Shown here piece after piece: positions 6,875-61,314 of a DNA stretch of 64,000 bases; the stretch's first letter is position 1, and each line of letters starts with the position of its first letter. Origin of the DNA: a phage; the sequence record PZ445551.1; one strand, written 5' to 3'. The notes beneath the pieces were generated by a model. That model had not been told where the DNA came from, searched no databases, and saw nothing but the letters and a program-made list of their open reading frames with translations. The translations under genes and the position numbers were made by a program.

Positions 6875-7236
6875 ATTGATATTTGAGGGGGACGGTCGGC
6901 AGAAATCGGGGGGCGCTGAAAATCGCGTTAAGCACCTCTCGCAAGCGAGCAGTATTTTGCGGCAAGTTATTGATATTATTGGCTTTACGCTTATGAAAAG
7001 GGGGTGTGTCGAAATAAATCGGGTATACCGGAAAATTTTTGTGGCATAGATATTTATTTGTCTATATTATGTACAAAAGGGTGTGTTAAAAATATTAGGT
7101 ATATATAGAATAATTGATAGGGAAATCCTATACTAATTCCTCCATTAATGATGTTTCTATGTTACTGTTCTTGTAACAGATGAAAAGACGCTGTATGATG
7201 TGTGGCATGAAACGTAAATTTATAAAGGAGTCTGAT

Positions 7237-7596
7237 ATGTGTGTTCCTCTTAGCAGTCCACTGCTGTTAGAATTTTACAAAGCATGGATGGAAGATCATT
7301 CCTCAATGCATCGTGAGAATGTTGGTTTGTGTAATTGCCTTATGGATTACCTGGCAACCACTATGTCAAAGAAAAAACCTACGGAAGAAGATATAGAATA
7401 TTTCAAGATGGTTCGTAGCAAAACGCTGGAAGAGATGAAACTGCAATTCACGTGTGCTGGGCTATCCTCCTTTCTACCCTTTAATTATGATCTTCTGTGT
7501 TATGAAGATGAAGGTAAGACACATTCTTGCCATACCAACCCAAAGAGATTGCAGTGGGTGAAAGATCGTATTGCCGATTCATGCAAGGGTGTGTAG
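7237..7596 (+). CDS. paralog family member 1 (LLxFYxxW...GLCxCL...QFxxAGL...LPFN...RxQWVxDRI)
   Basis: track ORF 7180..7596 trimmed to ATG 7237 after RBS aaggag; shares motif with 7743, 10034 and 11312 genes. Confidence 0.55.
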   Translation: MCVPLSSPLLLEFYKAWMEDHSSMHRENVGLCNCLMDYLATTMSKKKPTEEDIEYFKMVRSKTLEEMKLQFTCAGLSSFLPFNYDLLCYEDEGKTHSCHTNPKRLQWVKDRIADSCKGV

Positions 7597-7597
7597 A

Positions 7598-7753
7598 ATG
7601 TTGGAATTGATTGGGATAGTTTGGTTAATGATAAAAGCAGGTTTCGTCGGTTTCGGACTTCTTATAATTTTGTGTATGTTCCTTAGTGCAATACAGGCAT
7701 TCTTTTATCTGCTAGGTAGAATACTTAAGTTGGGAGGTGATAATGAAAAGTAA
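7598..7753 (+). CDS. small membrane protein (51 aa)
   Basis: track ORF 7571..7753 trimmed to ATG 7598; two hydrophobic segments. Confidence 0.4.
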   Translation: MLELIGIVWLMIKAGFVGFGLLIILCMFLSAIQAFFYLLGRILKLGGDNEK

Positions 7754-8111
7754 TATTCCGTTGAGTAGTGCAGCTTTAATACGATTCTATAAAGCATGGA
7801 TTGCCAACCATCCTGCAATGAATCGCACAACGAGTGGCTTATGTGGTTGTCTGGTAGATTATGTAGATGATTTTGTTGGTGAGATAACTAGAGAAGAAGA
7901 TAAAAGATGGCGTGATCGTTTGTTGGATAGTTTGAAATACGAAATGAGGAAACAATTTACATGTGCAGGACTGGACTACAATCTTCCGTTCAATGCAGAT
8001 TGCATGGATTACCTTTCAGAGTGTATAGACTTGGCGTGTCATACCAACACGTTACGTCTTCAATGGGTGAAAGACAGAATCGAAGATGCAAATAATGCTT
8101 GCATTGAATAG
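7743..8111 (+). CDS. paralog family member 2
   Basis: track ORF (GTG 7737) trimmed to ATG 7743 after RBS gggaggtg; conserved GLCGCL, QFTCAGL, LPFN, LQWVKDRI. Confidence 0.55.
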   Translation: MKSNIPLSSAALIRFYKAWIANHPAMNRTTSGLCGCLVDYVDDFVGEITREEDKRWRDRLLDSLKYEMRKQFTCAGLDYNLPFNADCMDYLSECIDLACHTNTLRLQWVKDRIEDANNACIE

Positions 8112-8871: not shown

Positions 8872-9048
8872 ATGGATAAACAAACTACTATGTACTTAGT
8901 AACAAAGAATACCCCAGGCTGGAGCCAATGCAGCACTGTTCCTTATAAGATCTGTGCAACATTAGAACTAGCACAACGTGCAGAAGCAGAAGTGAATGCC
9001 ATGCAATACAGCTATGGTGAAATCATTCCTTTTACTCTTGAACAATAA
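8872..9048 (+). CDS. small hypothetical protein (58 aa), not in track
   Basis: ATG 8872 after RBS aagaggaaaag; fills gap between track ORFs. Confidence 0.4.
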   Translation: MDKQTTMYLVTKNTPGWSQCSTVPYKICATLELAQRAEAEVNAMQYSYGEIIPFTLEQ

Positions 9049-9059
9049 GGATTTGTGTA

Positions 9060-9512
9060 ATGTTTGAAATTGGTAAAGTGTATCGTTTTAAGAACCCATC
9101 TTATATCCGTAAGTTTGCTAACGTGTCTGAGTGCAATAGCAGGATTGCTTCTTTCTTAGGTGATTCTTATTTTCGTGTATTAGATGTGGATGATTGGTAT
9201 GGTGTCACTGCTTTGCAATCCTTGGCAGGAGAACAAGAAATTATCGCTCAAAATGAAGGAGACTTTCTTCAGTGTTACACGTTGCTTGCAAAAAGTGAGT
9301 TTGAGTATTTTGTAGAAGTCTTAGAGGAAGCACCAAAAAGTAAACACGAAGAGAAATACCTGCTTGTAGTGGATGGAGTTCCGATCATGGAAACCATCTC
9401 CCGTGAGGAAGTTGAAAAAGAGGCGAAACGTTACAAACTGGATCGTACACAGAGTGTAGTTGAAATCTATTCTCTTGTTGGTGTTGCAGATATTAGTGTG
9501 AACATCGTATAA
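9060..9512 (+). CDS. hypothetical protein (150 aa)
   Basis: track ORF. Confidence 0.55.
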   Translation: MFEIGKVYRFKNPSYIRKFANVSECNSRIASFLGDSYFRVLDVDDWYGVTALQSLAGEQEIIAQNEGDFLQCYTLLAKSEFEYFVEVLEEAPKSKHEEKYLLVVDGVPIMETISREEVEKEAKRYKLDRTQSVVEIYSLVGVADISVNIV

Positions 9513-9515
9513 TAT

Positions 9516-9728
9516 ATGTGTAATGACAGATACATTCTCCGTGTATCTGATAAGTCTCCTATGTTTGACTGGCGGGGCTGGTGGCTACTAGCTCCGATGC
9601 AAGGTCTGACAGACGTGGAAAAGGAGGCTTATGTGTATACAAAAGAAGAGATAGAAGATAGCCTTTATTTGACAGATAACATTAAGAATGGTATCTTTGA
9701 GTGTAAATTGAAAGGAGAGGAAGAATGA
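9516..9728 (+). CDS. hypothetical protein (70 aa)
   Basis: track ORF; tight spacing. Confidence 0.5.
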   Translation: MCNDRYILRVSDKSPMFDWRGWWLLAPMQGLTDVEKEAYVYTKEEIEDSLYLTDNIKNGIFECKLKGEEE

Positions 9729-10024
9729 CTATTACAGAAAAACTGCGCTGTATTGCAAAGCAAAGTGGAGAAGGTTTATGGTTTCCTATTGAGGAAATTA
9801 TTCAGGACTGTTATGATCAGGCTAAGACTGGCAAATACTCCAAAGCATTTAAACCGTCTGTTTTCGGTTTGGATGACTATCCAAAAAATGAACAAGCAAA
9901 GAAACGACAAGTTGATTTGATTGATCTTGCTATGGAAGCACTACGAGAGCATGGGCTTAGTAAGGTGTATGCTTTAAACACCAAAGAGGGCTTTGTAGAT
10001 TCAGTGATCGTAGACTGGTATTAA
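9725..10024 (+). CDS. hypothetical protein (99 aa)
   Basis: track ORF; start overlaps upstream stop. Confidence 0.55.
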   Translation: MTITEKLRCIAKQSGEGLWFPIEEIIQDCYDQAKTGKYSKAFKPSVFGLDDYPKNEQAKKRQVDLIDLAMEALREHGLSKVYALNTKEGFVDSVIVDWY

Positions 10025-10033
10025 GGAGAAGCC

Positions 10034-10402
10034 ATGCAAGAAAATAATAAAGTGTGTAACATGAAAAGCAGCCCCTATTTGCTACAATTTTATGAGTGGT
10101 GGTTAGAACAAGAAGATACAAACTTTAGCAAAAAGCATTATGGTCTTTGCACGTGTCTTGTAGACTTCTTATACAATATTGCTTGGATAAAAGATGTTGA
10201 GAATGTAGCAAACCTCCAGTCCTCTGTACGAGAGGAAATGAAGGAACAGTTTAAGAAAGCAGGTTTGAACCATTTACACCCATTTAATACAGATTTCTCA
10301 CATTACTTTACGGAAACAGAGTTAGGCATTGCACACCTTAACAAAGAACGTGTACAATGGGTGATTGATCGTATTCGTGATATGGAGGAATATAATGGTT
10401 AA
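10034..10402 (+). CDS. paralog family member 3
   Basis: track ORF; LLQFYEWW, GLCTCL, QFKKAGL, HPFN, VQWVIDRI. Confidence 0.55.
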   Translation: MQENNKVCNMKSSPYLLQFYEWWLEQEDTNFSKKHYGLCTCLVDFLYNIAWIKDVENVANLQSSVREEMKEQFKKAGLNHLHPFNTDFSHYFTETELGIAHLNKERVQWVIDRIRDMEEYNG

Positions 10403-10604
10403 GTTTAAAACTTTCTGTGCAATCTCTGTTTGTCTTATTCTTGCATACGTGTTATTCTCTAGTATCATTCGTTTAGGTGAGTATATGGCAAGAGAAGCTC
10501 GTGAAAGTGAAGCTAAAAAAGAACAGTGCATCGTGTTAAAGCACCAAAGGGATGCTGAAAAATTTCTTGAACAGGATTGTGGGCGCTATGTGAATTATAA
10601 TTAG
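10395..10604 (+). CDS. small membrane protein; paralog of the 15393 gene
   Basis: track ORF 10365..10604 trimmed to ATG 10395 after RBS ggagg; N-terminal TM helix then KEQCIVLKHQRDAEKFLEQDC. Confidence 0.5.
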   Translation: MVKFKTFCAISVCLILAYVLFSSIIRLGEYMAREARESEAKKEQCIVLKHQRDAEKFLEQDCGRYVNYN

Positions 10605-10613
10605 GAGGGAAGT

Positions 10614-10862
10614 ATGTTAGATATTTTTACCTTTGATCGTGTTGGTACACCGATTACCGAAGAAGAACGTACCAAAATTGAACAAGAATTGGATGCTTTA
10701 CGTGCGTCTCTTACAGACACAGCCTCACTACAACGTGAAGCTGCACATCTCACAGAGATCACTGGTATTCAGTGGAGCACGGAGTGGGTTGTAATTACAA
10801 TTGAAGCGGATATTTGGGGACATGAAGAGACGCTACGTACCGGAGTAGTAACGGTTTGGTGA
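10614..10862 (+). CDS. hypothetical protein (82 aa)
   Basis: track ORF; RBS taggaggg. Confidence 0.55.
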   Translation: MLDIFTFDRVGTPITEEERTKIEQELDALRASLTDTASLQREAAHLTEITGIQWSTEWVVITIEADIWGHEETLRTGVVTVW

Positions 10863-10908
10863 TAGATGTTATTCTTTTGTGTTTCTTGATATATAAATAG
10901 GAGGGTTT

Positions 10909-11133
10909 ATGGTAAAACGTCTGGAATGGGATGCGTGTACTGCTCACGCTTGTCACTGTAATATTGTGGAAGATCCTAATGGAGAAATGGTGTATTATGA
11001 GGATTACGAAGCATTGCATAATGCTGTGATCGCTTTACTGGATGATATTAGCTCACGCTATCCAGGACAACAGTTTACGTGTCCACATATCCAACTATTA
11101 GCCAAACTTACGGAGTATCCAAGTGTTTCATAA
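10909..11133 (+). CDS. hypothetical protein (74 aa)
   Basis: track ORF; RBS taggaggg. Confidence 0.55.
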   Translation: MVKRLEWDACTAHACHCNIVEDPNGEMVYYEDYEALHNAVIALLDDISSRYPGQQFTCPHIQLLAKLTEYPSVS

Positions 11134-11134
11134 T

Positions 11135-11302
11135 ATGGGTGTCCCTGAACAACTCCTCTTTATTGTAGGATTAGTGGGCTTATTAGCGGCTGGAGCCAAA
11201 GCCGCTTCTCACACGCATCACATAATGTTAAGATTTCTGTTCCTACTCCCTTCTATCCTTGTATTATTAGTCATATTGATTGATAACATTTTTCACAATT
11301 AA
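11135..11302 (+). CDS. small membrane protein (55 aa), not in track
   Basis: ATG 11135; hydrophobic segments; weak RBS. Confidence 0.3.
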   Translation: MGVPEQLLFIVGLVGLLAAGAKAASHTHHIMLRFLFLLPSILVLLVILIDNIFHN

Positions 11303-11311
11303 GGAGAGGTT

Positions 11312-11896
11312 ATGAGTAAAATTATACCAAGCAGTTATGAATTATTGCAGTTTTATGTATATTACTTAGACTGGGTTAATAGATCGAATGTTAAAGACAA
11401 TGCGATGTTTAGTAAAAACATCTGTTTAACAGAAAGTATCTTCCGTTATTGGCACACAGGCAGAAAGTGTACACACAGTGAAGCTATGCGTATTGTAGGT
11501 GAATACCTGGAGCAATTGCAAAAAGCAGAACTTCCTGTCCTTCACCCATTCAACGAATCTAAAGAAGAATTAGAACAAGAGTGTAGAGAAGGTAAGTGCC
11601 ATTTAAATGAAAAACGTATCGAATGGGTGAGGCAACGTTTAGCCGATGCAGGAAAGACTCCTAGTGACTCTGACTATACGTGGTATGATGTAGAGGGTTT
11701 AGTTCAAGGTTTTGAGGCTTGTGCTATAGATAATACCAACTTTGCCAAAGTTTTATGTGAGGCTTATGATCTGGCAGATAAAATCCGAAATCACGGATGG
11801 AAACAAGAGCATAAAGAATCATATGAACGCCTTGACAAGATTTTCAAACAGATCTATTCTAACCACAAGAAGATGTTCCAAATGGAGGATGTGTAA
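11312..11896 (+). CDS. paralog family member 4 (extended C-terminus)
   Basis: track ORF; RBS aaggagagg; LLQFYVYYLDW, HPFN, IEWVRQRL. Confidence 0.55.
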   Translation: MSKIIPSSYELLQFYVYYLDWVNRSNVKDNAMFSKNICLTESIFRYWHTGRKCTHSEAMRIVGEYLEQLQKAELPVLHPFNESKEELEQECREGKCHLNEKRIEWVRQRLADAGKTPSDSDYTWYDVEGLVQGFEACAIDNTNFAKVLCEAYDLADKIRNHGWKQEHKESYERLDKIFKQIYSNHKKMFQMEDV

Positions 11897-12582
11897 TGAA
11901 AGAGATTATGTTTGAAGGGCATTGTTACGAAGTTCCAGACAATGCAAATTTCATGGCTCGTGATATCACTGGAGATGTGTTCTGGTTTGAAGATGAACCT
12001 ATGTTTTCTTCGAACAAACACTGGTTTTCACAACAATCTTCTTCGGAAAATATGACTTTTGGCTACGTAGAGTCTAAAGTACGTTGCAAAGCAGCTTCTT
12101 CTTTGGTAAAAATTTCCCAAGATGACCAAGAAAATACTCAAGATGTTGTTAGTGCGCTACTGAAGTACATTGCAGAACTTGAGAAGAAAATTAAAGAAGC
12201 AGAAACTAAGGTGAAAGCACGATCAGCAATCATCGAAACTATGTCTGAACGTATTTTAGAACTAGAAGATTTGTGTGGAGAGGCTTATCAAGTGGTTGGT
12301 GCGCTGGCGTGTGAAGCACAAATGTTTGAAACTTCAGAACAAGTTTCGCATATGTTAGATAATTTGAGTGAATGTAAAATGATTCATGATGATGTATTGC
12401 CATTTTGTTGCAATGTTAACAAAACAGAGCAAACACAAGATTCAGAAACAGTTTATGTTCCGCTAATGTGTGTTCCAGATCATCTAAAAGGTGTATTCTC
12501 TTGTAAATGGTCGCTGTTGAGCGTTACTAATTGTGGTGAAAACTATTCTGCCAACATTGAATTGCTAAAACACGTTAAATAA
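11896..12582 (+). CDS. hypothetical protein with central coiled-coil (228 aa)
   Basis: track ORF; ATGA overlap with upstream gene. Confidence 0.55.
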   Translation: MKEIMFEGHCYEVPDNANFMARDITGDVFWFEDEPMFSSNKHWFSQQSSSENMTFGYVESKVRCKAASSLVKISQDDQENTQDVVSALLKYIAELEKKIKEAETKVKARSAIIETMSERILELEDLCGEAYQVVGALACEAQMFETSEQVSHMLDNLSECKMIHDDVLPFCCNVNKTEQTQDSETVYVPLMCVPDHLKGVFSCKWSLLSVTNCGENYSANIELLKHVK

Positions 12583-12592
12583 GGAGAGTAAT

Positions 12593-12997
12593 ATGTGGTC
12601 TGTTAAAATCAAATATAATGCGCAGTATTATGGTGGAAAGCCTTACGAAGTTGTTATTTGTGATTGTATCTCTAAAGAAGTTGCACAGCTTTGTGGCGCT
12701 GGTGTTAGTGAAGCTATGAACAAAATGCATAACTCTACTGTGCGTTACTTGGATCAAGATATTCCAGAAGATGTAAATGACTATGCTTACGAAGTTATTT
12801 ACAGTGAAGGTAAGAAGCTCTCTATTGAAGATGCACTTAAAGCACTACCTGCTATGTGCAGCCCAACACCAAAAGCAGTTAAAGAGATTTTACCAGAATC
12901 CAACCCCGATGAATATGCTGCTATGGTTGCTTCGGACATGTGGAATCTCTGTCGAGAAACTATGATTAAAAATCTGGTGGAAATGGCGCATGAGTAA
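12593..12997 (+). CDS. hypothetical protein (134 aa)
   Basis: track ORF; RBS aaggagag. Confidence 0.55.
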   Translation: MWSVKIKYNAQYYGGKPYEVVICDCISKEVAQLCGAGVSEAMNKMHNSTVRYLDQDIPEDVNDYAYEVIYSEGKKLSIEDALKALPAMCSPTPKAVKEILPESNPDEYAAMVASDMWNLCRETMIKNLVEMAHE

Positions 12998-13208
12998 AAC
13001 GCACTTTATACATCCGTTTGATCCAAAGAACAAGGCGGTTATACACCGCCGTTGGACTGAAACGCGCATTACAAAATGTCCTGTGCCAGCAGCACAGGAA
13101 TATAACAAAACATATAAAGCAGAATTTGTGGAGTACACCTTTGTAAATAACAAAGGGAAGGAGGTTTATGTTCCAGAATACTGCCTTTGGATAAAATGGG
13201 AGGAATAA
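12990..13208 (+). CDS. hypothetical protein (72 aa)
   Basis: track ORF. Confidence 0.5.
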   Translation: MSKTHFIHPFDPKNKAVIHRRWTETRITKCPVPAAQEYNKTYKAEFVEYTFVNNKGKEVYVPEYCLWIKWEE

Positions 13209-13375
13209 TGCAAACATTTTTTATCGACAAGTTCAATAAAAGTATGAACACGTGGATGGCAACATTCACTATGCAATTTGCGTCATTTAAAGAAGCTCAA
13301 GAATGGTGCGATCAACACAAGGATTTTGATTTTTACTATCAAGTTAATGCAAACCTTTCTCCAGAGGAGAAATAA
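13208..13375 (+). CDS. hypothetical protein (55 aa)
   Basis: track ORF 13187..13375 trimmed to ATG 13208 after RBS gggagg. Confidence 0.45.
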   Translation: MQTFFIDKFNKSMNTWMATFTMQFASFKEAQEWCDQHKDFDFYYQVNANLSPEEK

Positions 13376-13376
13376 T

Positions 13377-13721
13377 ATGTTGGCTGATATTGAAATCCTT
13401 ATGTACCGACAAGGTATGATCAAAATGTGGCTAGATTCTTTTAGCAACATATACTGCACAGTACGATCAGCAGACGAGCGTAAAACGCTTATTTTATCTG
13501 CTATTGTTGATAAACAACGTTTCTTCAAAGAAATTTTGCAAACAGGCTTCTCCGATGCAGGAGTAGAGATTGCAACGCTTAGTCTTGGAGTGCTGTCTTA
13601 CTTGGAATCCGTTGTTTTATATGTCTTCTCTTTAGAAGAACACTTGCAATTTGAAGCATTAAAACTTATCTTAGATGCTGCAATTGACATAGAACAAAAT
13701 CGAATTGATTCTTTTGAATAA
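13377..13721 (+). CDS. hypothetical protein (114 aa)
   Basis: track ORF 13278..13721 trimmed to ATG 13377 after RBS gaggagaaa. Confidence 0.5.
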   Translation: MLADIEILMYRQGMIKMWLDSFSNIYCTVRSADERKTLILSAIVDKQRFFKEILQTGFSDAGVEIATLSLGVLSYLESVVLYVFSLEEHLQFEALKLILDAAIDIEQNRIDSFE

Positions 13722-13737
13722 AAATAAGGAGGAAACT

Positions 13738-14196
13738 ATGCAAGAGGTTAAACATTATCCACATGGTCGTAGTTTTGTAGCTGTATGGCATGTTCCTGCT
13801 CGTAATGAACTATTTTGCGCATCTTTTCATTACAAAGATGGACAATATTTCACCTATGACGAGACGATGGATGATTTCATCCCAGAGTGCGATCATGGGT
13901 ATACACCAATGTTCTTTAAACGTATGAAAGCTCGTTTCTTCGTTACAGATGTTGATGGTGAACCTACTTGGCACATCGAAGAAGATTGGCAAGATTCTGT
14001 GGATATTAAAGAAGCCCCAGAATGGGCTACATTACTGGTACACGTCAAAACCCCTACTCTTGACGTTATGGCGTGGGTTAATCATGATGATACCCATTAC
14101 CAATACATAAATGGTAGCACAGAGATTTCTGGTGAGATTATTGGTCGTTGGAAGCCTACGAATCAGGTTGCTATTGTCGGGTATAAGACAGTATAA
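13738..14196 (+). CDS. hypothetical protein (152 aa)
   Basis: track ORF 13705..14196 trimmed to ATG 13738 after RBS aaggagg. Confidence 0.55.
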   Translation: MQEVKHYPHGRSFVAVWHVPARNELFCASFHYKDGQYFTYDETMDDFIPECDHGYTPMFFKRMKARFFVTDVDGEPTWHIEEDWQDSVDIKEAPEWATLLVHVKTPTLDVMAWVNHDDTHYQYINGSTEISGEIIGRWKPTNQVAIVGYKTV

Positions 14197-14197
14197 T

Positions 14198-14392
14198 ATG
14201 AAAAATAGTGTAGATTGGGATGATTTATCCGATTTTGAAAAATGGTTCTTAGGTAGTGGTTGTTATGCAGATGGGGATCTCGAAAGAGATCCTTCTGGAA
14301 ACTACACTATGCCATTAACCCAAGGTTTTTATGAGTGCTGGTGCGCAGCACAAAACAACGTACTGAATAAGGAGACAACACAATGCAATTAA
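14198..14392 (+). CDS. hypothetical protein (64 aa)
   Basis: track ORF 14111..14392 trimmed to first non-overlapping ATG. Confidence 0.45.
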   Translation: MKNSVDWDDLSDFEKWFLGSGCYADGDLERDPSGNYTMPLTQGFYECWCAAQNNVLNKETTQCN

Positions 14393-14622
14393 ACATCGGA
14401 CAACCAATTTTTGATGCAGATACTGGTCAATATGCAGTGATTGTTGCTCGTATGAGCGGTGATGACCTTATTGTTTCAGAACTACTCGGATCAGATCCGC
14501 AACTGCGCGTAGTATGTGACCTATATCTTCGAGACGAAAGTGATCGCATTGCACTGAAAGAAGATGGTATGCTCTACTATACCTGGACTAGAGATCCTGG
14601 GGTAACGGAGGTAGAGGTATAA
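14383..14622 (+). CDS. hypothetical protein (79 aa)
   Basis: track ORF; RBS aaggagac. Confidence 0.55.
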   Translation: MQLNIGQPIFDADTGQYAVIVARMSGDDLIVSELLGSDPQLRVVCDLYLRDESDRIALKEDGMLYYTWTRDPGVTEVEV

Positions 14623-14921
14623 TGGTAAGGAATAGGGGTTTACATAAAAGAAGACACCTTACTTACTGGCATCGTAAAGTACATGAACCTGTATCAAAGA
14701 AAGAATGGCAATATCTGCCTTATGGGAAGGAGCGAAGAAAGTACCTGTTAGCTCACTTAAGGGTACATGGTTCTCTTCCTGTTAACAGTAAGTGGCAATT
14801 GCAAACAGCTTATGACGAAGATATGAAATATCTGTTAAAGAGAGGCATTATTTGCCTTGTTAAGATAGGACGATGGAAATCTCGTCAATCTTATATCGTA
14901 CTTAAACAGGAGAAACGATGA
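14622..14921 (+). CDS. basic hypothetical protein (99 aa)
   Basis: track ORF; Lys/Arg-rich. Confidence 0.5.
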   Translation: MVRNRGLHKRRHLTYWHRKVHEPVSKKEWQYLPYGKERRKYLLAHLRVHGSLPVNSKWQLQTAYDEDMKYLLKRGIICLVKIGRWKSRQSYIVLKQEKR

Positions 14922-15169
14922 ATATCAAAGATGTTGTAGCATACGTAGAAGATGAAGTTAAAAACCATACAAGTTTACTGAAAGTAATGGTTGTGGTTAA
15001 AGATGGTATTGGACAAGTAAACGTACAACATGTCTTATCTGACACTGTATATAATGTGTTTGAATGTAAAGAAACACCTCATGGAGTACGTGTGGTTTAT
15101 ATTGATAACAATTTCAAAGAATGTGTGAGACATACCTTAGAAAATGAACTAAGGATCACAATCTTATGA
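14918..15169 (+). CDS. hypothetical protein (83 aa)
   Basis: track ORF. Confidence 0.5.
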   Translation: MNIKDVVAYVEDEVKNHTSLLKVMVVVKDGIGQVNVQHVLSDTVYNVFECKETPHGVRVVYIDNNFKECVRHTLENELRITIL

Positions 15170-15339
15170 GTTATTATGTTGTACCTTATGCCAATAAGTG
15201 GAGAGTAAGAGAAACTTGTTTTCTATTCTCTTGGTGGGCTACGTTCGGAGATGGTTGTGGAAATGATACAGGAAAGCCTGTAGAGTACGACACAAAAGAA
15301 GAATGTGAACAGTGGATAAAATTAACACAAAGATGTTGA
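15166..15339 (+). CDS. small Cys/Trp-rich protein (57 aa), not in track
   Basis: ATG 15166 overlapping upstream stop (ATGA); in-frame TGA 15337-15339. Confidence 0.4.
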   Translation: MSYYVVPYANKWRVRETCFLFSWWATFGDGCGNDTGKPVEYDTKEECEQWIKLTQRC

Positions 15340-15392
15340 CACGATCTTAACTTCTTGTTAGTATCAATGTGTACTAACGATAAGGAGGGTTT

Positions 15393-15617
15393 ATGAAGTC
15401 TGTAAACAAGTTGCAACAATTTTTGTTATCAACAGCAATCTTTTTGCTTTTGTTAATTGGTATTCTGTATGGTGCATCTAACTTATACAATCTACATAAT
15501 GATGTAGAACAGAATAAAGAGAAGTGCATCATTCTAAAACACAAGAAACAAGCAGAAGATTTCTTAAAGAATAAGTGTTACAACTACATTGATTATGAGG
15601 AGACAAACAATGATTAA
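15393..15617 (+). CDS. small membrane protein; paralog of the 10395 gene
   Basis: track ORF; RBS aaggaggg; TM helix then KEKCIILKHKKQAEDFLKNKC. Confidence 0.55.
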   Translation: MKSVNKLQQFLLSTAIFLLLLIGILYGASNLYNLHNDVEQNKEKCIILKHKKQAEDFLKNKCYNYIDYEETNND

Positions 15618-15852
15618 AGAATTAGGTATGCGAGTATACAGTGAGTGGACTCCAAGCAATGGCCCAGGAGTTGTTGCAGCTAAATGTATCAATGGTCGTA
15701 TTGAGTACCTGGAAGGGTATGAAGATAATGAAGAGTTAGTAGATTATGCTAAATCTTTTATTGAAGATGATACAGACTTTATTGTATTATATGATACAGG
15801 AGAGTTAGAGTATGGGTATGATGGAGATGGGGATATCTTTGAACTTCAATAA
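15610..15852 (+). CDS. acidic hypothetical protein (80 aa)
   Basis: track ORF 15589..15852 trimmed to ATG 15610 after RBS gaggag. Confidence 0.5.
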   Translation: MIKELGMRVYSEWTPSNGPGVVAAKCINGRIEYLEGYEDNEELVDYAKSFIEDDTDFIVLYDTGELEYGYDGDGDIFELQ

Positions 15853-15872
15853 GAGTAGTAAGTAAGGTATAA

Positions 15873-15919
15873 AGAGTATATAGTTAGTTATAGAGTTAGT
15901 AACATTACATATACTCTTT
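15873..15919. repeat. perfect 11-bp inverted repeat AAAGAGTATAT / ATATACTCTTT flanking 25 nt
   Basis: read directly; loop contains AGTTAGT direct repeats. Confidence 0.55.
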
Positions 15920-16059
15920 CCATGTATAACATGGAATATTCTCTACCTCGCTATCGCTCGGTATATAAGATTAGGGTAGCATGTTTTTTACGAAAAGTAA
16001 AACTGTTTATACCGATTGATAGCAGGTTTTTAATAGATTCTATCTATGAGGAGTAGAAA

Positions 16060-16278
16060 GTGTACAAATTATATAAAGGAAAAGATAAGTTTACGGGTAA
16101 TACATCTGGTTTCTATGTAACACCACGTGGCGTTGCCGTATTTGATTGGATTCCTGGTACTCCAGATCGTGAAATGATCTCTCTTGTAAAACTGTCGGAA
16201 CAAGAGTACACTTACGGTGACATTACAACATTCTATTCTCGTGCAGAAAATCCAAAACTGATTGCGGAGTGGGAATAA
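16060..16278 (+). CDS. hypothetical protein (72 aa), GTG start
   Basis: track ORF; RBS gaggag 6 nt upstream of GTG 16060. Confidence 0.45.
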   Translation: MYKLYKGKDKFTGNTSGFYVTPRGVAVFDWIPGTPDREMISLVKLSEQEYTYGDITTFYSRAENPKLIAEWE

Positions 16279-16541
16279 TGGTTACACGATATGATTTAGA
16301 GGTGTACAGCCAAGGTGCTGCTGGTCAATGTGATATTGTACCAGATCCAGAAGGAGACTATGTTCTTCTTGCTGATTACAACAAGCTAGAAGAAAGACTT
16401 CTGGCTGTGTATGCTAAAGAGAACAAAACAATCTGTCCTTATTGCAATGGAATGGGTTGGGTGGTTGCAGATGTTGGACAAATGTATGAGTGTGTACCTT
16501 GTAAAACCACAGGCTTTATTGAAAAGGATACTGACAAATGA
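16269..16541 (+). CDS. hypothetical protein with CxxC...CxxC zinc-ribbon motif (90 aa)
   Basis: track ORF; CPYCNG ... CVPCKTTG. Confidence 0.5.
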   Translation: MGIMVTRYDLEVYSQGAAGQCDIVPDPEGDYVLLADYNKLEERLLAVYAKENKTICPYCNGMGWVVADVGQMYECVPCKTTGFIEKDTDK

Positions 16542-16786
16542 CTGTAGCAGATAAAATGAGAGAACTGGCAGAAAACGCAGAACTTAACAAAGCAAAGGAG
16601 AGTTTACAAAACATCTACGCGTATATTGAAAGAGCAGCTAAAGATGGAGACAGAGAAGCCGCTATATACACGCTTTATCCAACTTTTGTAAAAGTTAGTT
16701 TGGATGCTGAAGGTTTTTCAACTTTTATTGATACAGAAACATCTCATTACGATGAAAACTTTACTCGAATAGTTATTCGATGGTAA
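16538..16786 (+). CDS. hypothetical protein (82 aa)
   Basis: track ORF; ATGA overlap. Confidence 0.5.
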   Translation: MTVADKMRELAENAELNKAKESLQNIYAYIERAAKDGDREAAIYTLYPTFVKVSLDAEGFSTFIDTETSHYDENFTRIVIRW

Positions 16787-16891
16787 ATTTCTGATATTTA
16801 TGCGCCCTGGTTACCTGGGCGTAATAAATTCAGCTTATATTTGATCCGCGCCTTCGGCGCTTAGGCAAAGCCACGCCACACAGGAGAGTTT

Positions 16892-17302
16892 ATGTTCAAA
16901 TGGTTAAAAGAGTTTCTAACATCTTTGGTAGAACCTAAGCAAGACGTTATTAAAAGCTCTATCACAGGAAAACCGCTTGTTATAGTTACAGGCGGCTTTG
17001 GTCATGGGTTTTCTCTTAAACAAACAGATATAGGTTTACAGGGATCTTTGATTAGTTTTAGAATCACTCAATTAGGAGATAATAGACAAACAATCTTAGA
17101 CCTTTTCAATGGGGAATTTGATGACTATTTATCCAAGAGTGGTAAAGAACGTCTGATCGAGCATATAAAACACCGCTATGAGCATGGTGGTTACTACTTA
17201 GATACAAAACGTAATGCACAAGGTGATCTTGACATAGTTCGTATAGCGTGGGATAATGAATTTAAAACTAAACTTGGTAAACTTCTGGAGGAGTTATGGT
17301 AA
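16892..17302 (+). CDS. hypothetical protein (136 aa)
   Basis: track ORF; RBS caggagag. Confidence 0.55.
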   Translation: MFKWLKEFLTSLVEPKQDVIKSSITGKPLVIVTGGFGHGFSLKQTDIGLQGSLISFRITQLGDNRQTILDLFNGEFDDYLSKSGKERLIEHIKHRYEHGGYYLDTKRNAQGDLDIVRIAWDNEFKTKLGKLLEELW

Positions 17303-19538: not shown

Positions 19539-19544
19539 CACATA

Positions 19545-19567
19545 AACCCGCTTCGGCGGGTTTTCTT
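19545..19567 (+). terminator. rho-independent terminator
   Basis: cccgc-ttcg-gcggg hairpin followed by TTTTCTT. Confidence 0.6.
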
Positions 19568-19915: not shown

Positions 19916-19948
19916 GCCCCCTAGAAGCGATTCTAGGGGCTTTTGTTT
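19916..19948 (+). terminator. rho-independent terminator at end of plus-strand module
   Basis: gcccctagaa-gcga-ttctaggggc followed by TTTTGTTT. Confidence 0.6.
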
Positions 19949-32253: not shown

Positions 32254-32520
32254 TTACTCCGCAATCTGAGCCATGAATTCACGTAGTTCAGAAAAACCTC
32301 CTACGTGGGTTAGCTGTTCACCATCTTCCACAAAAATCTGAGGAAATGTGCGTGGTAGAACACCTGTTTTCTCTAAAACCAGATTCTGAATCTGATCTAA
32401 AGAATAGTCTTCATCTAAGGTAAGGTATTTAAAATCCTGTTCACGCTGTTCTAGTAGAATCTTAGCGTTAGTGCAGAAAGGACAATTTGGTTTACCGTAG
32501 ATAATAAAATTCATTTTCAC
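32254..32520 (-). CDS. glutaredoxin/thioredoxin-like (NrdC/NrdH-type)
   Basis: CPFC active-site motif near N-terminus; 88 aa. Confidence 0.75.
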   Translation of the reverse strand: MKMNFIIYGKPNCPFCTNAKILLEQREQDFKYLTLDEDYSLDQIQNLVLEKTGVLPRTFPQIFVEDGEQLTHVGGFSELREFMAQIAE

Positions 32521-33347
32521 TCCTTGTTTAAAAGTATAGTTAAAGTTCTTACAATACCGCTATCAACACTTCGCGGATTTAAAGTAGGATCTGTTTTTAA
32601 ATAAGATGTTGCTGGTCTGACTGCTTTTGAATTATAGGTTGAAGCAGATACAGGATTAACTGTAACAGATAAATCTATAACAAGAAATATCTTTCGTGCA
32701 AAATCATACCAAGAAATATAATCTGCACCTGCATAGTGTACAATTTTACTATTTACACCATCTTTTACAAGTTTAAAAATTGTTTCTGCAAGATCAGGTG
32801 CATAAGTAGGACATGATAAATGATCACATACTACATTAAATTCTTTTTGACCACCGTTGTAGCGTTCCAACATAGTTTTCAAAAAGTTATGTCCAAATTC
32901 ACTATAAACAGAAGCTGTTCGGATAATAAGTGCTGTAGGACAAACTGTTTGTACTAAAGTTTCACCTAATTGTTTACTATAACCGTAGGTGTTCAAGGGG
33001 TTTGTTTTACTATCTTCTGTACCAGCAACATGCCCATCAAAAACATAGTCTGTTGAAATATGTACAAACTGTATCAGTAAATCATTACATGCTTTGGCAA
33101 TGTTTGTTGCACCGTATGCATTAACATTTATACAGGTGTTAACATCTTCTTCAGCTTTATCTACTGCCGTGTAAGCCGCACAATTCACAACAACATCAGG
33201 CACATGCTGTACAAGACTATTCATAACATCTTTAAAGTTGGTAATGTCTACATCACTTGCTTCAATCAAAATAACATCTTCGGGCGCAACTTTTGCCAAA
33301 GACTGTCCTAATTGACCTTTTGAACCAAAGACTAAAAATTTTGTCAA
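32517..33347 (-). CDS. rmlD: dTDP-4-dehydrorhamnose reductase
   Basis: N-terminal GxxGQLG Rossmann motif; position after rmlC. Confidence 0.75.
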   Translation of the reverse strand: MTKFLVFGSKGQLGQSLAKVAPEDVILIEASDVDITNFKDVMNSLVQHVPDVVVNCAAYTAVDKAEEDVNTCINVNAYGATNIAKACNDLLIQFVHISTDYVFDGHVAGTEDSKTNPLNTYGYSKQLGETLVQTVCPTALIIRTASVYSEFGHNFLKTMLERYNGGQKEFNVVCDHLSCPTYAPDLAETIFKLVKDGVNSKIVHYAGADYISWYDFARKIFLVIDLSVTVNPVSASTYNSKAVRPATSYLKTDPTLNPRSVDSGIVRTLTILLNKE

Positions 33348-34788: not shown

Positions 34789-35778
34789 TTAAACTTTATT
34801 TTCCCACCACTCTTTGTTATCTACATACCAATCAATGGTTGAATAAAGTTTTTCTTCAAATGTGCCTTTAGCTTTCCACCCTAATTCCTTTTCAATCTTA
34901 TAAGGATTCACTTCATATCTTAGATCATGCCCAGGCCTATCTGTAACCATCTCAATGAGGCTACAAGCATCTGTTTCAGATGGATATACCGCATCCATAT
35001 AATCACAAATCATATAGATTACATCAATATTAGTTCTAGGGTTTCTGCTCCCAATATTATATGTTTCTCCAGATTTGCCTTTAGTTACTACTAGGTGTAA
35101 TGCTTCTGCGTGATCGTCAACGTATAGCCAGTCTCTTACTTGAAGACCATTACCATAAACAGGGATTGGTTTATTCATTAAGATATTTGTTATCGTCTTA
35201 GGTATTAGTTTTTCTGGATGATGATATGCTCCAAAATTATTTGAACAATTTGTTATAACTGTCGGAATACCATAAGTACGATGCCACGCTCTTACCAAAT
35301 GATCGCTTGCAGCTTTAGATGCAGCATATGGACTACTTGGTTTATAAGGATTCTGTTCTGTAAACGGATAATCCCCTTCTTCCAGATCACCATACACTTC
35401 ATCTGTTGAAATATGATGGAACATTTTAAGATTTGATTTATCTCCCATTAAACGAACAGCTTCTAGAAGATTAAATGTCCCAACAATATTTGAATTTATA
35501 AAAACACTCGGTGATGCTATTGAATTATCTACGTGACTCTCTGCTGCAAGATGCATTATATAATCTGGATTAACATCTGCCACAATCTTAGCAGTTAACT
35601 GCGCATTTGTCAAGTCAACACGACAAAACTTTACATTAGGTGTTTCTGATAAATTCCTAGGGTCTGAAGCGTAACCCCATTTATCTATAACGTAAATATC
35701 ATTCTTAGTATTTTTAGCTAGGAAACGAACTACCGCACTTCCAATAAAGCCTAAACCACCTGTTACTAAGTATTTCAT
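34789..35778 (-). CDS. rmlB: dTDP-glucose 4,6-dehydratase
   Basis: TGGLGFIGS Rossmann motif, SDR YxxxK region. Confidence 0.85.
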
Positions 35779-59616: not shown

Positions 59617-59692
59617 GGTTCCATAGCTCACTGACGAGAGCGCACACCTCATAAGTGTCGAGGGCAGGGATTGTAACCCTGGGGAACCTCCA
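59617..59692 (+). tRNA. tRNA-Met(CAT) (or Ile2), atypical T-loop ATTGTAA
   Basis: manual cloverleaf: acceptor GGTTCCA/GGGAACC, D-arm GCTC..GAGC, anticodon loop CTCATAA, CCA encoded. Confidence 0.6.
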
Positions 59693-59723
59693 TTTAAAAG
59701 GAGGTGCTATGCATCTCCTATAT

Positions 59724-59809
59724 GCAAGTGTGGTGGAATTGGTGATACACATTGTGCTTAAAACGCAACGCTTAAATGCTTGAGGGTTCGAATCCCTCCA
59801 CTTGCACCA
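59724..59809 (+). tRNA. tRNA-Leu(TAA), type II
   Basis: acceptor GCAAGTG/CACTTGC, anticodon loop CTTAAAA, long variable arm, T-arm GAGGG-TTCGAAT-CCCTC. Confidence 0.75.
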
Positions 59810-59824
59810 ACACCTAAAAATATC

Positions 59825-59853
59825 TTGACATTTACTTAGTTTTTTGTTATAGT
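59825..59853 (+). promoter_or_regulatory. sigma70-like promoter TTGACA-17-TATAGT
   Basis: read directly; 11 nt upstream of the tRNA-like element. Confidence 0.5.
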
Positions 59854-59864
59854 TACTATGAAAA

Positions 59865-59946
59865 CGGGGTGTATCTCACCTGACTTCTAATCAGGCGTTA
59901 ACCGAGTAATTGGAGTATGCAGGTTCGAATCCTGTCACCCCGGCCA
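59865..59946 (+). tRNA. atypical tRNA-Arg(TCT)-like element lacking a D-arm
   Basis: perfect acceptor CGGGGTG/CACCCCG, T-arm GCAGG-TTCGAAT-CCTGT, anticodon hairpin CCTGA-CTTCTAA-TCAGG, but only 7 nt between acceptor and anticodon stem and a 23-nt insert before the T-arm. Confidence 0.4.
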
Positions 59947-60009
59947 AAAAGTTTTAAAAACTACTTGACAAGCAAGATAGTTTTATGTTAGATTTAAAGT
60001 ATAATAACT

Positions 60010-60099
60010 GGAAGGTAGGGCGCAGCGGTGCGCAACCAGGTTTGAACCCTGGCCCATTGTAGCGATACGGTGATGGTTCGACTCCATTATCTTCCTCCA
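60010..60099 (+). tRNA. tRNA-Ser(TGA), type II
   Basis: acceptor GGAAGGT/ATCTTCC, anticodon loop TTTGAAC, long variable arm, CCA encoded. Confidence 0.75.
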
Positions 60100-60117
60100 A
60101 ATTCTCTTAGGAGCTTT

Positions 60118-60270
60118 ATGAATTATAAAACTATTGGACAGGTTGTTACCGGAGTTAAGATTGTAAATAATAAAGTTGTTTATGAGTATTCTAATCTTCA
60201 ACAATCTGAAGATGGTAAGAATATTCGTATGGTAAAAACAGAACAAAAAGATTCCGGTTGTTTTGAATAA
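60118..60270 (+). CDS. small hypothetical protein (50 aa) embedded in tRNA array
   Basis: track ORF 60070..60270 trimmed to ATG 60118 after RBS aggag so it no longer overlaps tRNA-Ser. Confidence 0.45.
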   Translation: MNYKTIGQVVTGVKIVNNKVVYEYSNLQQSEDGKNIRMVKTEQKDSGCFE

Positions 60271-60278
60271 TTAAAAAC

Positions 60279-60364
60279 GGTAGATTGGTGAAATGGTAGC
60301 CACAACAGTTTGCTAAACTGTCGTCGGAAACGGCGTGTAGGTTCAAGTCCTACATCTACCGCCA
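60279..60364 (+). tRNA. tRNA-Ser(GCT), type II
   Basis: acceptor GGTAGAT/ATCTACC, anticodon loop TTGCTAA, long variable arm, T-arm GTAGG-TTCAAGT-CCTAC. Confidence 0.8.
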
Positions 60365-60498
60365 AGTTATCTTTAATGTAGCTTGTAATCTTACTTTAGC
60401 AGAGTAAATCTTCGGCAAGTGGCGGTAACCACTTTACCGATACCCCAATACTTCATAGCTAAGTGCCGCAAACACTGGCTATTTTAAAGATAATTTAT

Positions 60499-60574
60499 AC
60501 ATCGTTAGCTTAGTTGGTAGAGCAAGGGGCTTTTAACTCCAAGGTCGAAGGTTCGAATCCTTCACGATGTACCA
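60499..60574 (+). tRNA. tRNA-Lys(TTT)
   Basis: acceptor ACATCGT/ACGATGT, D-arm GCTT..GAGC, anticodon loop CTTTTAA, T-arm GAAGG-TTCGAAT-CCTTC. Confidence 0.85.
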
Positions 60575-60579
60575 AACAC

Positions 60580-60666
60580 GTAGGTATCGCATAGCGGCAA
60601 TTGCTGGAGACTGTAAATCTCCTGCCCTTCGGGGCTTCGTTGGTTCGAGTCCAACTACCTGCACCA
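60580..60666 (+). tRNA. tRNA-Tyr(GTA), type II
   Basis: anticodon arm GGAGA-CTGTAAA-TCTCC, variable-arm hairpin GCCCC-TTCG-GGGC, T-arm GTTGG-TTCGAGT-CCAAC. Confidence 0.8.
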
Positions 60667-60673
60667 AATTAAA

Positions 60674-60758: not shown

Positions 60759-60837
60759 AATAGTGCTTGTAGAGTTAATAGAAACCTCTAGAATTTTCTA
60801 GAATTGTAGGTATCAAATCCTACCAAGCAAATATTTT

Positions 60838-60912: not shown

Positions 60913-60935
60913 ATTTTAACTCTAAAGGAGTGTAT

Positions 60936-61259: not shown

Positions 61260-61273
61260 ATATCAAAAGCCTC

Positions 61274-61303: not shown

Positions 61304-61314
61304 AATATTATTAA

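What the first reader, a model, noticed from the sequence alone, without database searches (positions are those of the whole stretch)
10395..15617. Second paralog pair: small single-pass membrane proteins with a shared KE(Q/K)CI(V/I)LKH motif
The 10395..10604 and 15393..15617 products both start with a transmembrane helix followed by KEQCIVLKHQRDAEKFLEQDC versus KEKCIILKHKKQAEDFLKNKC. Such duplicated small membrane proteins are candidates for superinfection exclusion or lysis timing functions.
Basis: seen in the sequence. Interest (0 to 1): 0.4.

Follow-up and report, generated by a model that had tools for sequence, protein, structure and literature searches.

The report
Two related tiny phage membrane proteins
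Two small early-region genes of a phi92-like E. coli phage encode diverged copies of a ~70-residue single-pass membrane protein with a conserved two-cysteine tail; the family is real and confined to this phage group, but its function is still untested.

Summary
The window is Escherichia phage VivaForever, a phi92-like Justusliebigvirus. Gene A (10395..10604) is the phi92 gp007 orthologue and gene B (15393..15617) is gp022. Their C-terminal 30 residues are 50% identical (E 1e-10). Subfamily profiles align over 63 columns (HHalign 99%, E 5e-18).

Both belong to a narrow family: 21 representatives among 1.84 billion proteins; where contig length is on record, the longest contigs are ~135-155 kb and look like Stephanstirmvirinae. 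Members are 61-83 aa, with one N-terminal hydrophobic helix, a variable charged stalk, and a 28-residue conserved end containing two invariant cysteines. AlphaFold2 models that end as a small helical hairpin, which matches no PDB fold.

Nothing in Pfam, NCBIfam, PADLOC or PDB sequences matches credibly, and the two PHROGs are "unknown function". Both genes lie a few kb from the genome's left end. B sits behind a sigma-70-like promoter that is almost invariant across seven genomes. pN/pS is about 0.1-0.6.

My best reading is an inner-membrane-tethered, periplasm-facing, disulfide-stapled mini-binder made early, possibly for superinfection exclusion. Topology and function are inferred, not shown. 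This is an ordinary but well-defined uncharacterised phage family, of modest interest.

The parts
10395..10604 (+). Gene A, 69 aa (orthologue of phi92 gp007 and phAPEC8 gp232; phrog_15662): MVKFK, hydrophobic helix, charged stalk, then KEQCIVLKHQRDAEKFLEQDCGRYVNYN
10384..10388 (+). Shine-Dalgarno GGAGG, 6 nt before the ATG of A. The ATG overlaps the stop of the upstream gene (ATGGTTAA).
10413..10469 (+). Hydrophobic transmembrane segment of A (residues 7-25, mean Kyte-Doolittle 2.5)
10518..10601 (+). Conserved C-terminal module of A (residues 42-69) with invariant E43, C45, K49, L58 and C62. AlphaFold2 predicts a helix-turn-helix hairpin.
10034..10402 (+). Upstream gene (phi92 gp006-like, phrog_2510) whose stop overlaps the start of A. 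The same adjacency is seen in phAPEC8 (gp233-gp232), but not in the other lineages examined.
15336..15364 (+). Sigma-70-like promoter TTGACA-17-TAGTAT with an upstream TG, in the 53-nt gap before B. The aligned 81 nt (end of the upstream gene, the gap, and the start of B) are identical in 7 genomes except one base.
15383..15388 (+). Shine-Dalgarno AGGAGG of B
15393..15617 (+). Gene B, 74 aa (phi92 gp022; phrog_23204): MKSVNK, hydrophobic helix, linker, then KEKCIILKHKKQAEDFLKNKCYNYIDYEETNND
15420..15476 (+). Hydrophobic segment of B (residues 10-28). The phi92 record annotates residues 1-27 as a SignalP 3.0 signal peptide.
15516..15614 (+). Conserved C-terminal module of B (residues 42-74): a basic hairpin (KNKC where A has EQDC) plus an acidic tail
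15610..15852 (+). Downstream 80-aa acidic protein (phi92 gp023, phrog_23012) whose start overlaps the stop of B (ATGATTAA). It probably shares a transcription unit with B.
15918..15936 (+). Weak terminator-like hairpin after the B-gp023 unit

Best explanation
A and B are two anciently diverged paralogues of a family of roughly 60-80-residue bitopic inner-membrane proteins. The family is restricted to phi92/phAPEC8-like (Stephanstirmvirinae-type) phages.

Each protein has four parts: a very short N-terminal tail, one transmembrane helix acting as a signal anchor (possibly cleaved in B), a variable charged helical stalk, and a conserved 28-residue helical hairpin.

I infer that the hairpin faces the periplasm and is stapled by a disulfide between the two invariant cysteines (C45-C62). 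I also infer that both genes are transcribed early by host RNA polymerase, with B from its own promoter.

The proposed mode of action is a membrane-tethered periplasmic mini-binder that acts at the cell envelope. The most likely job is blocking entry by a superinfecting phage, for example by binding a tail-tip or ejection component. In that case the two paralogues, which have opposite surface charge next to the second cysteine (EQD-C against KNK-C), would have different targets.

Shown: paralogy, architecture, family limits, purifying selection, conserved promoter-like sequence. Inferred: topology, disulfide, early timing, target and function.
For: - Identity and context: the window is 100% identical to phage VivaForever and about 98% to phi92. 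In phi92 the two genes start 2.7 kb and 7.4 kb from the left end of the genome, in the first block of small same-strand genes.
- Paralogy.
- Family limits: a profile search of 1.84 billion representatives gave 21 hits, of which 19 share the same 61-83 aa architecture and two (P0079, P0081) are compositional repeat matches. Only 4 loci turned up in IMG/VR. Phage-database hits are nearly all Stephanstirmvirinae-type records of about 130-160 kb.
- Invariant residues: both cysteines are invariant across 30 diverse trimmed sequences, and E, K, A, F and L are nearly so.
- Structure: AlphaFold2 on the full length gives pLDDT 80 with helix 2-50 and helix 54-59. The soluble part alone gives pLDDT 86 with the same hairpin. 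BFVD models of the A-type, the B-type and an ESCO13 family member superpose on it (TM 0.77-0.97).
- Topology: the net charge of the N-terminal flank exceeds that of the C-terminal flank in 48 of 50 members. Divergent members P0082 (MSKRKASHFSR...AIA|T) and P0076 (acidic ESEPDDD after the helix) give strong N-in/C-out signals. phi92 gp022 carries a SignalP 3.0 signal-peptide annotation.
- Expression: a promoter-like TTGACA-17-TAGTAT sits in the only gap before B and is essentially invariant in 7 genomes, although pS within B reaches 0.17.
- Selection: pN/pS is mostly 0.1-0.6 for both genes.
- Repeated duplication: A/B in Justusliebigvirus, two places reported in the ESCO13 record (a Phapecoctavirus-type phage), and a tandem pair in L007. 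This is typical of arms-race accessory genes.
- Precedent: T4 Spackle is an early, periplasmic, disulfide-bonded helical exclusion protein (PMC7677548).
Against: - No similarity in sequence or fold to any characterised exclusion protein.
- Orientation is not settled. A plain positive-inside K+R count favours the C-terminal side being cytoplasmic in 29 of 50 members, with 14 ties. A itself has an Arg directly after the helix.
- The disulfide is inferred. I could not read Cys-Cys distances from the models.
- Early timing rests on genome position and a consensus promoter match. The promoter scan as a whole is not enriched over shuffles (52 found against 45.9 expected). I found no transcriptome for this phage group.
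- No conserved partner gene or target can be named.
Confidence: 0.35

Rival explanations
1. Host-envelope modulator (works like MgrB). The tethered periplasmic hairpin binds the periplasmic or transmembrane part of a host inner-membrane protein, such as a sensor kinase, transporter, cell-wall or division enzyme, or a membrane-bound defence effector. It thereby reprogrammes or disarms that protein early in infection, rather than acting on other phages.
For: - The architecture matches MgrB: a small protein with one TM helix and two conserved periplasmic cysteines whose disulfide is needed to inhibit PhoQ (PMC12648545).
- The hairpin scaffold is conserved across phages recorded on E. coli and Klebsiella, which fits a conserved host target.
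- The genes sit in the block I infer to be early.
Against: - No sequence similarity to MgrB or any host small protein. Pfam gives no hit at E<=1, and the 1.84-billion representative search returns only proteins of this same phage-type family plus two spurious matches.
- Repeated duplication and divergence of surface residues is more typical of phage-versus-phage or phage-versus-defence conflict than of targeting a conserved housekeeping protein.
Confidence: 0.22
2. Cytoplasm-facing orientation (N-out/C-in). The helix is a membrane tether and the charged hairpin sits in the cytoplasm. There it recruits or sequesters a cytoplasmic partner at the membrane, possibly the products of the translationally coupled neighbours (gp006-like for A, gp023 for B). 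The cysteines would be reduced or would bridge a metal in a dimer.
For: - The K+R count is higher on the C-terminal flank in 29 of 50 members, and A has R26 immediately after the helix.
- N-terminal tails are only 2-9 residues long in most members, so they could be translocated.
- Start and stop codons overlap soluble neighbours. The gp006-like neighbour is kept in phAPEC8.
Against: - Net charge favours N-in in 48 of 50 members. Members with clear signals (P0082 with a +4 N-tail, P0076 with an acidic post-helix flank) point to C-out.
- An isolated invariant Cys pair with 16 residues between, on a 28-residue hairpin, is typical of a disulfide. It is not a zinc site, since no third or fourth ligand is conserved and His50 varies to Y, Q or K.
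- Neighbours are not conserved across the family.
Confidence: 0.15
3. Lysis-timing or membrane-damaging protein: a holin, an antiholin (like T4 RI), or a Hok/Gef-like pore former that depolarises the inner membrane. The periplasmic cysteines would mediate disulfide-linked oligomers.
For: - HokB is N-in/C-out, and its periplasmic Cys46 forms DsbA-dependent dimers needed for pore formation (PMC8309996).
- The holin of phi92-like phages is not securely identified. The BME3 paper reports no TM proteins next to the endolysins (PMC12210895).
- The profile's spurious hit to a coiled-coil repeat shows the motif region is helix- or coiled-coil-like, so self-association is plausible.
Against: - The genes lie in the left-end block inferred to be early, far from any lysis or structural genes. 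B has a host-type promoter.
- No Pfam hit to Hok/Gef or any holin family at E<=1.
- The BME3 authors' holin candidates are 61- and 81-residue proteins with holin topology II features, not the 69- and 74-residue proteins here.
- The periplasmic part, about 45 residues, is far too short for a spanin.
- Two constitutively early pore formers would be self-defeating unless tightly controlled.
Confidence: 0.12
4. Chance similarity, or non-functional ORFs.
For: The proteins are very short, and identity outside the C-terminal 30 residues is low in pairwise BLAST.
Against: - E 1e-10 pairwise and 5e-18 profile-profile.
- Strong Shine-Dalgarno sequences throughout the family.
- Conservation down to 26-40% identity with invariant cysteines.
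- pN/pS below 1.
- Annotated as coding sequences in every annotated record inspected.
Confidence: 0.02

Closest known systems
PHROG families phrog_15662 and phrog_23204 (both 'unknown function'); GenBank phi92 gp007 and gp022, phAPEC8 gp232, ESCO13_00050
   Same: These are the same proteins or their orthologues (E 2e-33 and 1e-49).
   Different: The databases keep them as two separate families with no function. This work shows they form one family (HHalign 99%) with a defined architecture and an invariant Cys pair.
Bacteriophage T4 Spackle (gp61.3), a superinfection exclusion protein
   Same: An early gene product of a virulent myovirus. It is exported to the periplasm, is small and all-helical, and contains one intramolecular disulfide (PMC7677548).
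   Different: Spackle is a cleaved, soluble 75-residue helical bundle that binds the gp5 lysozyme. Here the soluble part is about 45 residues and probably stays membrane-anchored. A PDB sequence-profile search at E<=10 and a Foldseek PDB search returned no Spackle match. No target is known.
MgrB (E. coli, Salmonella, Klebsiella), a small-protein inhibitor of PhoQ
   Same: A very small bitopic inner-membrane protein with one TM helix. Its short periplasmic tail has two conserved cysteines whose disulfide is needed for function (PMC12648545).
   Different: MgrB is host-encoded and 47 aa. There is no sequence similarity (no Pfam hit at E<=1), the cysteine spacing and motif differ, and the family here occurs only in phages.
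Hok/Gef type I toxins (for example HokB)
   Same: About 50 aa, with an N-in/C-out single helix and a periplasmic C-terminal extension carrying a functional cysteine oxidised by DsbA (PMC8309996).
   Different: No Pfam Hok/Gef hit, and no antisense-RNA or mok-type control is evident. Here an intramolecular pair is conserved rather than a single dimerising cysteine. The genes are expressed as ordinary phage genes, each with a strong Shine-Dalgarno sequence.
T4 RI antiholin (recalled from general knowledge, not tested beyond sequence and fold searches)
   Same: A small phage protein with an N-terminal signal-anchor-type helix and a helical periplasmic domain that binds another membrane protein's periplasmic domain.
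   Different: No RI match was returned by the PDB sequence-profile or fold searches, on the untested assumption that an RI chain is in those libraries. No link to a holin is known in phi92-like phages.

Membership tests
phrog_15662 / phrog_23204 (the phi92 gp007 and gp022 families) | Significant full-length match to the family HMM | tested here: met
   A: 2.3e-33 over residues 1-68. B: 1e-49 over residues 1-74. Reciprocal cross-hits at 6e-7 and 1.5e-8.
The single-TM / Cys-pair family as defined here | 61-83 aa, one N-terminal hydrophobic helix, and the C-terminal motif E-x-C-[IVAT]-[IVY]-x-K...A..F-L...C..[YFWL][VITM].[YWF], with both cysteines present | tested here: met
   Both window proteins carry every invariant column of alignments A2 and A3. 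The helix is predicted.
T4 Spackle (gp61.3) | Sequence or fold homology to the Spackle helical bundle | tested here: not met
   The PDB profile search at E<=10 returns no Spackle chain, and Foldseek against the PDB returns 0 matches.
T4 Spackle (gp61.3) | Binds and inhibits a tail-associated lysozyme, giving an exclusion phenotype | not testable with these tools
   This needs binding assays or a multimer prediction, plus plating experiments.
Hok/Gef toxins | Match to the Pfam Hok/Gef model | tested here: not met
   No such hit at E<=1 in Pfam-A.
MgrB | Match to the Pfam or NCBIfam MgrB model | tested here: not met
   No such hit at E<=1.
Holins / T4 Imm / other annotated phage membrane-protein families | Match to any Pfam, PHROG or NCBIfam family with that annotation | tested here: not met
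   Only unknown-function PHROGs match. The remaining Pfam and NCBIfam hits are insignificant and unrelated.
Known anti-phage defence proteins (PADLOC) | Match to a PADLOC model | tested here: not met
   0 families at E<=1.
C-type lectin domain | Full CTLD (~120 aa) with the EDC...WND..C...C pattern and a Pfam Lectin_C match | tested here: not met
   Only L-selectin hits, at E 0.008, over 37 profile positions and with a 2-residue gap. No other lectin-domain chain in the PDB is hit, and Pfam gives no Lectin_C hit. The domain here is 28 aa and is predicted helical.
Bitopic N-in/C-out membrane protein with a periplasmic disulfide | C-terminus in the periplasm and cysteines oxidised | tested here: inconclusive
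   Net charge favours N-in in 48 of 50 members, but the K+R count favours C-in in 29 of 50. The SignalP 3.0 annotation exists only for gp022. The disulfide cannot be measured here.
i-spanin (Rz-like) | A periplasmic coiled coil of roughly 100 residues or more, plus a partner o-spanin lipoprotein gene | tested here: not met
   The soluble part is about 45 residues. The sequenced neighbours show no lipobox partner, and none has a lysis annotation.

The most novel reading that the evidence does not exclude
The conserved 28-residue, disulfide-stapled helical hairpin is a new minimal periplasmic binding module. Tethered to the inner membrane early in infection, it would block a step of phage genome delivery or neutralise a membrane-embedded host defence or sensor. 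The two paralogues (an acidic face in A, a basic face in B) would cover different targets. If so, this would be a new mechanistic class of exclusion or anti-defence mini-protein in the therapeutically used phi92/phAPEC8 phage group.
Probability: 0.2. Interest if true: 0.6.

Novelty: new variant of a known kind. Interest (0 to 1): 0.3.

Why it matters
phi92- and phAPEC8-like phages are widely isolated for therapy and biocontrol, yet the block of small genes at the left genome end is almost entirely unannotated.

This work defines one compact family there. It has a clear architecture, an invariant cysteine pair and repeated duplication, which gives a small, cheap-to-test candidate for superinfection exclusion or envelope manipulation. 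That function matters when phages are combined in cocktails.

If the hairpin proves to be an autonomous disulfide-stapled binder, it would also be one of the smallest such modules known. As it stands, this is an ordinary uncharacterised accessory family, not a surprise.

Tried and rejected
- Function by homology: Pfam, NCBIfam and PADLOC give nothing credible, and PHROGs give only unknown-function families.
- PDB sequence-profile search: the only hits near significance are two L-selectin lectin-domain chains (E 0.008). I rejected these as chance, because no other lectin-domain chain was hit, Pfam gave no Lectin_C hit, and the module is predicted helical.
- Exhaustive representative search: the two non-family hits are a eukaryotic kinesin-like coiled-coil repeat (P0079) and a repeat peptide (P0081). 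Both are compositional.
- Fold searches: BFVD returns only the family itself, and the PDB returns nothing.
- Guilt by association: neighbours of family members in 9 divergent loci share no homology beyond the gp006-like gene upstream of the A-type in phi92-like and phAPEC8-like phages. None has a known function.
- Literature: searches on phi92 early genes, Stephanstirmvirinae and Justusliebigvirus transcriptomics found no study of these genes.
- Alternative start at 10365 (TTG): rejected as less likely than the ATG at 10395, on Shine-Dalgarno and family-wide evidence.
- Lipoprotein reading: no lipobox. The Klebsiella-type 'LVVC' is not canonical.
- Spanin reading: the periplasmic part is too short and there is no partner gene.
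- Topology from charge rules: the two rules disagree, so topology is left as inferred.

Full report
**What the window is**

Window 9000-17000 is 100% identical to Escherichia phage VivaForever (PP925843) and about 98% identical to phage phi92. VivaForever is a Justusliebigvirus in the subfamily Stephanstirmvirinae.

In phi92 the corresponding genes are numbered 001-031 and start just after the left terminal repeat. Gene A (window 10395..10604) corresponds to phi92 gp007, whose start lies 2.7 kb from the left end. Gene B (15393..15617) corresponds to gp022, at 7.4 kb. Both sit in a dense run of small same-strand genes, nearly all annotated "hypothetical".

**Checking the observation**

Both ORFs are present as described.
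- Each ATG follows a strong Shine-Dalgarno sequence: GGAGG at 10384-10388 and AGGAGG at 15383-15388.
- BLASTP aligns residues 39-68 of both proteins with 15/30 identities, E 1e-10.
- In an all-against-all search of the 377 window ORFs of at least 40 aa, the pair scores E 7e-8. It is one of about ten significant paralogue pairs.
- A belongs to phrog_15662 and B to phrog_23204, and each weakly hits the other's family.
- When the A-type and B-type subfamilies are compared as profiles, they align over 63 columns, including the hydrophobic helix and the linker, with 99% probability and E 5e-18.
- A six-frame HMM scan finds only these two copies in the window.

The alternative TTG start at 10365 lies inside the upstream gene and lacks the Shine-Dalgarno sequence that precedes the ATG. 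All 15 family genes I examined have a GGAG-type site before the annotated ATG, and every database record calls the 69-aa form.

**The family**

Word-indexed searches, followed by an exhaustive HMMER profile search of 1.84 billion representative proteins, recovered a very small family.
- There were 21 representatives at E<=1e-3. Two of them (a eukaryotic kinesin-like coiled coil and a repeat peptide) are compositional artefacts.
- IMG/VR holds only four loci.
- Where contig length is on record, the longest contigs are about 135-155 kb. Phage-database hits are nearly all Stephanstirmvirinae-type records of about 130-160 kb: Justusliebigvirus, Phapecoctavirus, and the Klebsiella phage phi1_175008 examined here.

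All intact members are 61-83 aa and share the same layout:
- a tail of 2-20 residues;
- an uncharged stretch of 15-31 residues (median 20);
- a variable charged linker;
- a conserved end, roughly K-E-x-C-I-V-L-K-[HYQ]-x-K-x-A-E-K-F-L-x-x-x-C-x-x-[YFW]-[VI]-x-[YW].

Both cysteines are invariant in 30 diverse sequences. E43, K49, A54, F57 and L58 are invariant or nearly so.

Clustering of the conserved module separates at least three lineages: the A/gp232/Klebsiella type, the B type (with one metagenomic relative, P0074), and a phiWec190/ESCO13 type. One metagenomic contig (L007) carries two members in tandem. Duplication has therefore recurred.

Among seven Justusliebigvirus genomes, pN/pS is mostly 0.1-0.6 for both genes. 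This indicates moderate purifying selection, although the counts are small.

**Structure**

AlphaFold2 with the family alignment models A as one long helix (residues 2-50), a turn, and a short helix (54-59), at pLDDT 80. The soluble part alone (residues 30-69) gives the same hairpin at pLDDT 86, exceeding 90 in the core.

BFVD models of the A-type, the B-type and an ESCO13 family member superpose on it (TM 0.77-0.97), and no other viral model matches. Foldseek finds nothing in the PDB.

C45 lies about 1.5 turns before the end of helix 1, and C62 lies just after helix 2. That geometry is compatible with a stapling disulfide. I could not measure the distance, so the bond is inferred.

**Topology**

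This point is not settled, and the evidence is mixed.
- For N-in/C-out: the net charge of the N-flank exceeds that of the C-flank in 48 of 50 members. Divergent members give clear signals, namely P0082 with four basic residues before the helix and an AIA|T site, and P0076 with ESEPDDD after the helix. The phi92 record annotates a SignalP 3.0 signal peptide (residues 1-27) on gp022. An isolated invariant Cys pair on a 28-residue module is most simply read as a periplasmic disulfide.
- Against: a plain K+R count favours a cytoplasmic C-terminus in 29 of 50 members, and A has an arginine directly after its helix.

I put N-in/C-out at roughly two in three.

**Expression context**

A's start codon overlaps the stop of the gp006-like gene (ATGGTTAA). 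The same adjacency is kept in phAPEC8 (gp233-gp232) but not in the other lineages examined.

B follows the only sizeable gap in its neighbourhood. That gap holds TTGACA-17-TAGTAT with an upstream TG. The aligned 81 nt around it are identical in seven genomes apart from one base, even though synonymous divergence within B reaches 0.17. That pattern argues for a constrained regulatory element.

B's stop overlaps the start of the next gene (15610..15852), and a weak terminator-like hairpin follows at 15918-15936. Host-type promoters and the left-end position suggest early expression. I found no transcriptome for this phage group, and the promoter scan as a whole is not enriched over shuffled sequence.

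**Function**

Nothing transfers by homology.
- Pfam, NCBIfam and PADLOC give no credible hit, and the PHROG families are of unknown function.
- The PDB sequence-profile search returns only L-selectin at E 0.008, matching KEDC..IYIKRNKDAGKWNDDAC. I judge this to be chance, because no other lectin-domain chain was hit, Pfam gives no Lectin_C hit, and the module is predicted helical.
- Neighbouring genes are unannotated and not conserved.

The best-supported mechanistic reading is therefore architectural: a membrane-tethered, probably periplasmic, disulfide-stapled mini-binder made early.

Precedents with this logic are:
- T4 Spackle, which is early, periplasmic, helical and disulfide-bonded, and blocks the incoming tail lysozyme (PMC7677548);
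- host MgrB, which has one TM helix plus two periplasmic cysteines and binds PhoQ (PMC12648545);
- HokB, which is N-in/C-out and whose periplasmic cysteine is oxidised by DsbA (PMC8309996).

The conserved residues are mostly scaffold: the hydrophobic core plus the cysteines. Exposed positions differ between the paralogues. Next to the second cysteine, A has EQD and B has KNK, and B adds an acidic tail. That suggests one scaffold with different partners.

Recurrent duplication and this surface divergence lean me towards a conflict function, either exclusion of other phages or neutralising a membrane-associated defence, rather than housekeeping. A lysis role is less likely given the location, though the holin of this phage group is not firmly identified (PMC12210895).

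**Verdict**

The pair is real, and it belongs to a well-delimited, phage-restricted family that databases currently split into two unknown-function groups. Its functional suggestion remains a reasonable but untested candidate. This is a new variant of a familiar kind of thing (small bitopic phage membrane proteins in an early-gene block), not a new category. Interest is modest at 0.3.

Noticed in passing
window 7180-7596, 7737-8111, 10034-10402, 11312-11896 (+): The gp006-like family (phrog_2510 / phrog_27059, unknown function) has four paralogues in this window, with pairwise E-values from 4e-32 to 5e-6. One of them is the gene whose stop overlaps the start of A.
   Followed up: partly
window 10909-11133 and 16269-16541 (+): A 74-aa protein gives a weak match to Lar-like restriction alleviation proteins (phrog_3592, E 6e-4). 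It is weakly similar (E 7.5e-4) to the 90-aa protein annotated in phi92 as having a DnaJ-like zinc finger.
   Followed up: no
locus L007 6001-6243 and 6243-6455 (Logan SRR13494276 contig): Two members of the TM / Cys-pair family (P0080 and P0075) lie in direct tandem in a related metagenomic phage contig. This shows that the family has duplicated more than once.
   Followed up: partly
window 10563-10601; loci L001, L009, L010 compared with L002, L011, L012: Protein A has two alternative C-terminal tails within the genus. FLEQDCGRYVNYN occurs in the window, EmilieFrey, PD06 and alia. FLALDCNRYVSYQMYE occurs in phi92, PHB05 and AMO3598. The first tail (or a near-identical one) also appears on P0032 and P0046, which have unrelated N-terminal helices, suggesting mosaic exchange.
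   Followed up: partly
window 10518-10580 (profile positions 22-58 of alignment A2): The family profile matches the C-type lectin segment of L-selectin (KEDCveIYIKRNKDAGKWNDDAC, E 0.008), including both disulfide cysteines of that segment. I judged it a chance match, but it is the only near-significant PDB hit.
   Followed up: partly
window 11123-11302 (+): Another very small predicted membrane protein (59 aa, apparently two hydrophobic segments; corresponds to phi92 gp009, which carries a SignalP annotation) lies between A and B. It has no PHROG or Pfam match.
   Followed up: no
window 59617-62204 (+): A cluster of 15 tRNA genes, including two tRNA-Met, two tRNA-Leu and two tRNA-Ser.
   Followed up: no
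window 19544-19563 and 19918-19939: Two strong bidirectional terminator-like hairpins sit at the point where GC skew and gene orientation switch from the + to the - strand, near 20 kb.
   Followed up: no
window 32517-33347 and 34789-35778 (-): A further paralogue pair on the minus strand (29% identity over 162 aa, E 2e-7), not examined.
   Followed up: no
GenBank MG065645, MG065689, MG065650 (hits H41, H42, H70): Records named 'Campylobacter phage A145 / A110a / B15' match this coliphage early region at the DNA level and carry these genes (protein A at 87% identity). The host attribution looks doubtful.
   Followed up: no
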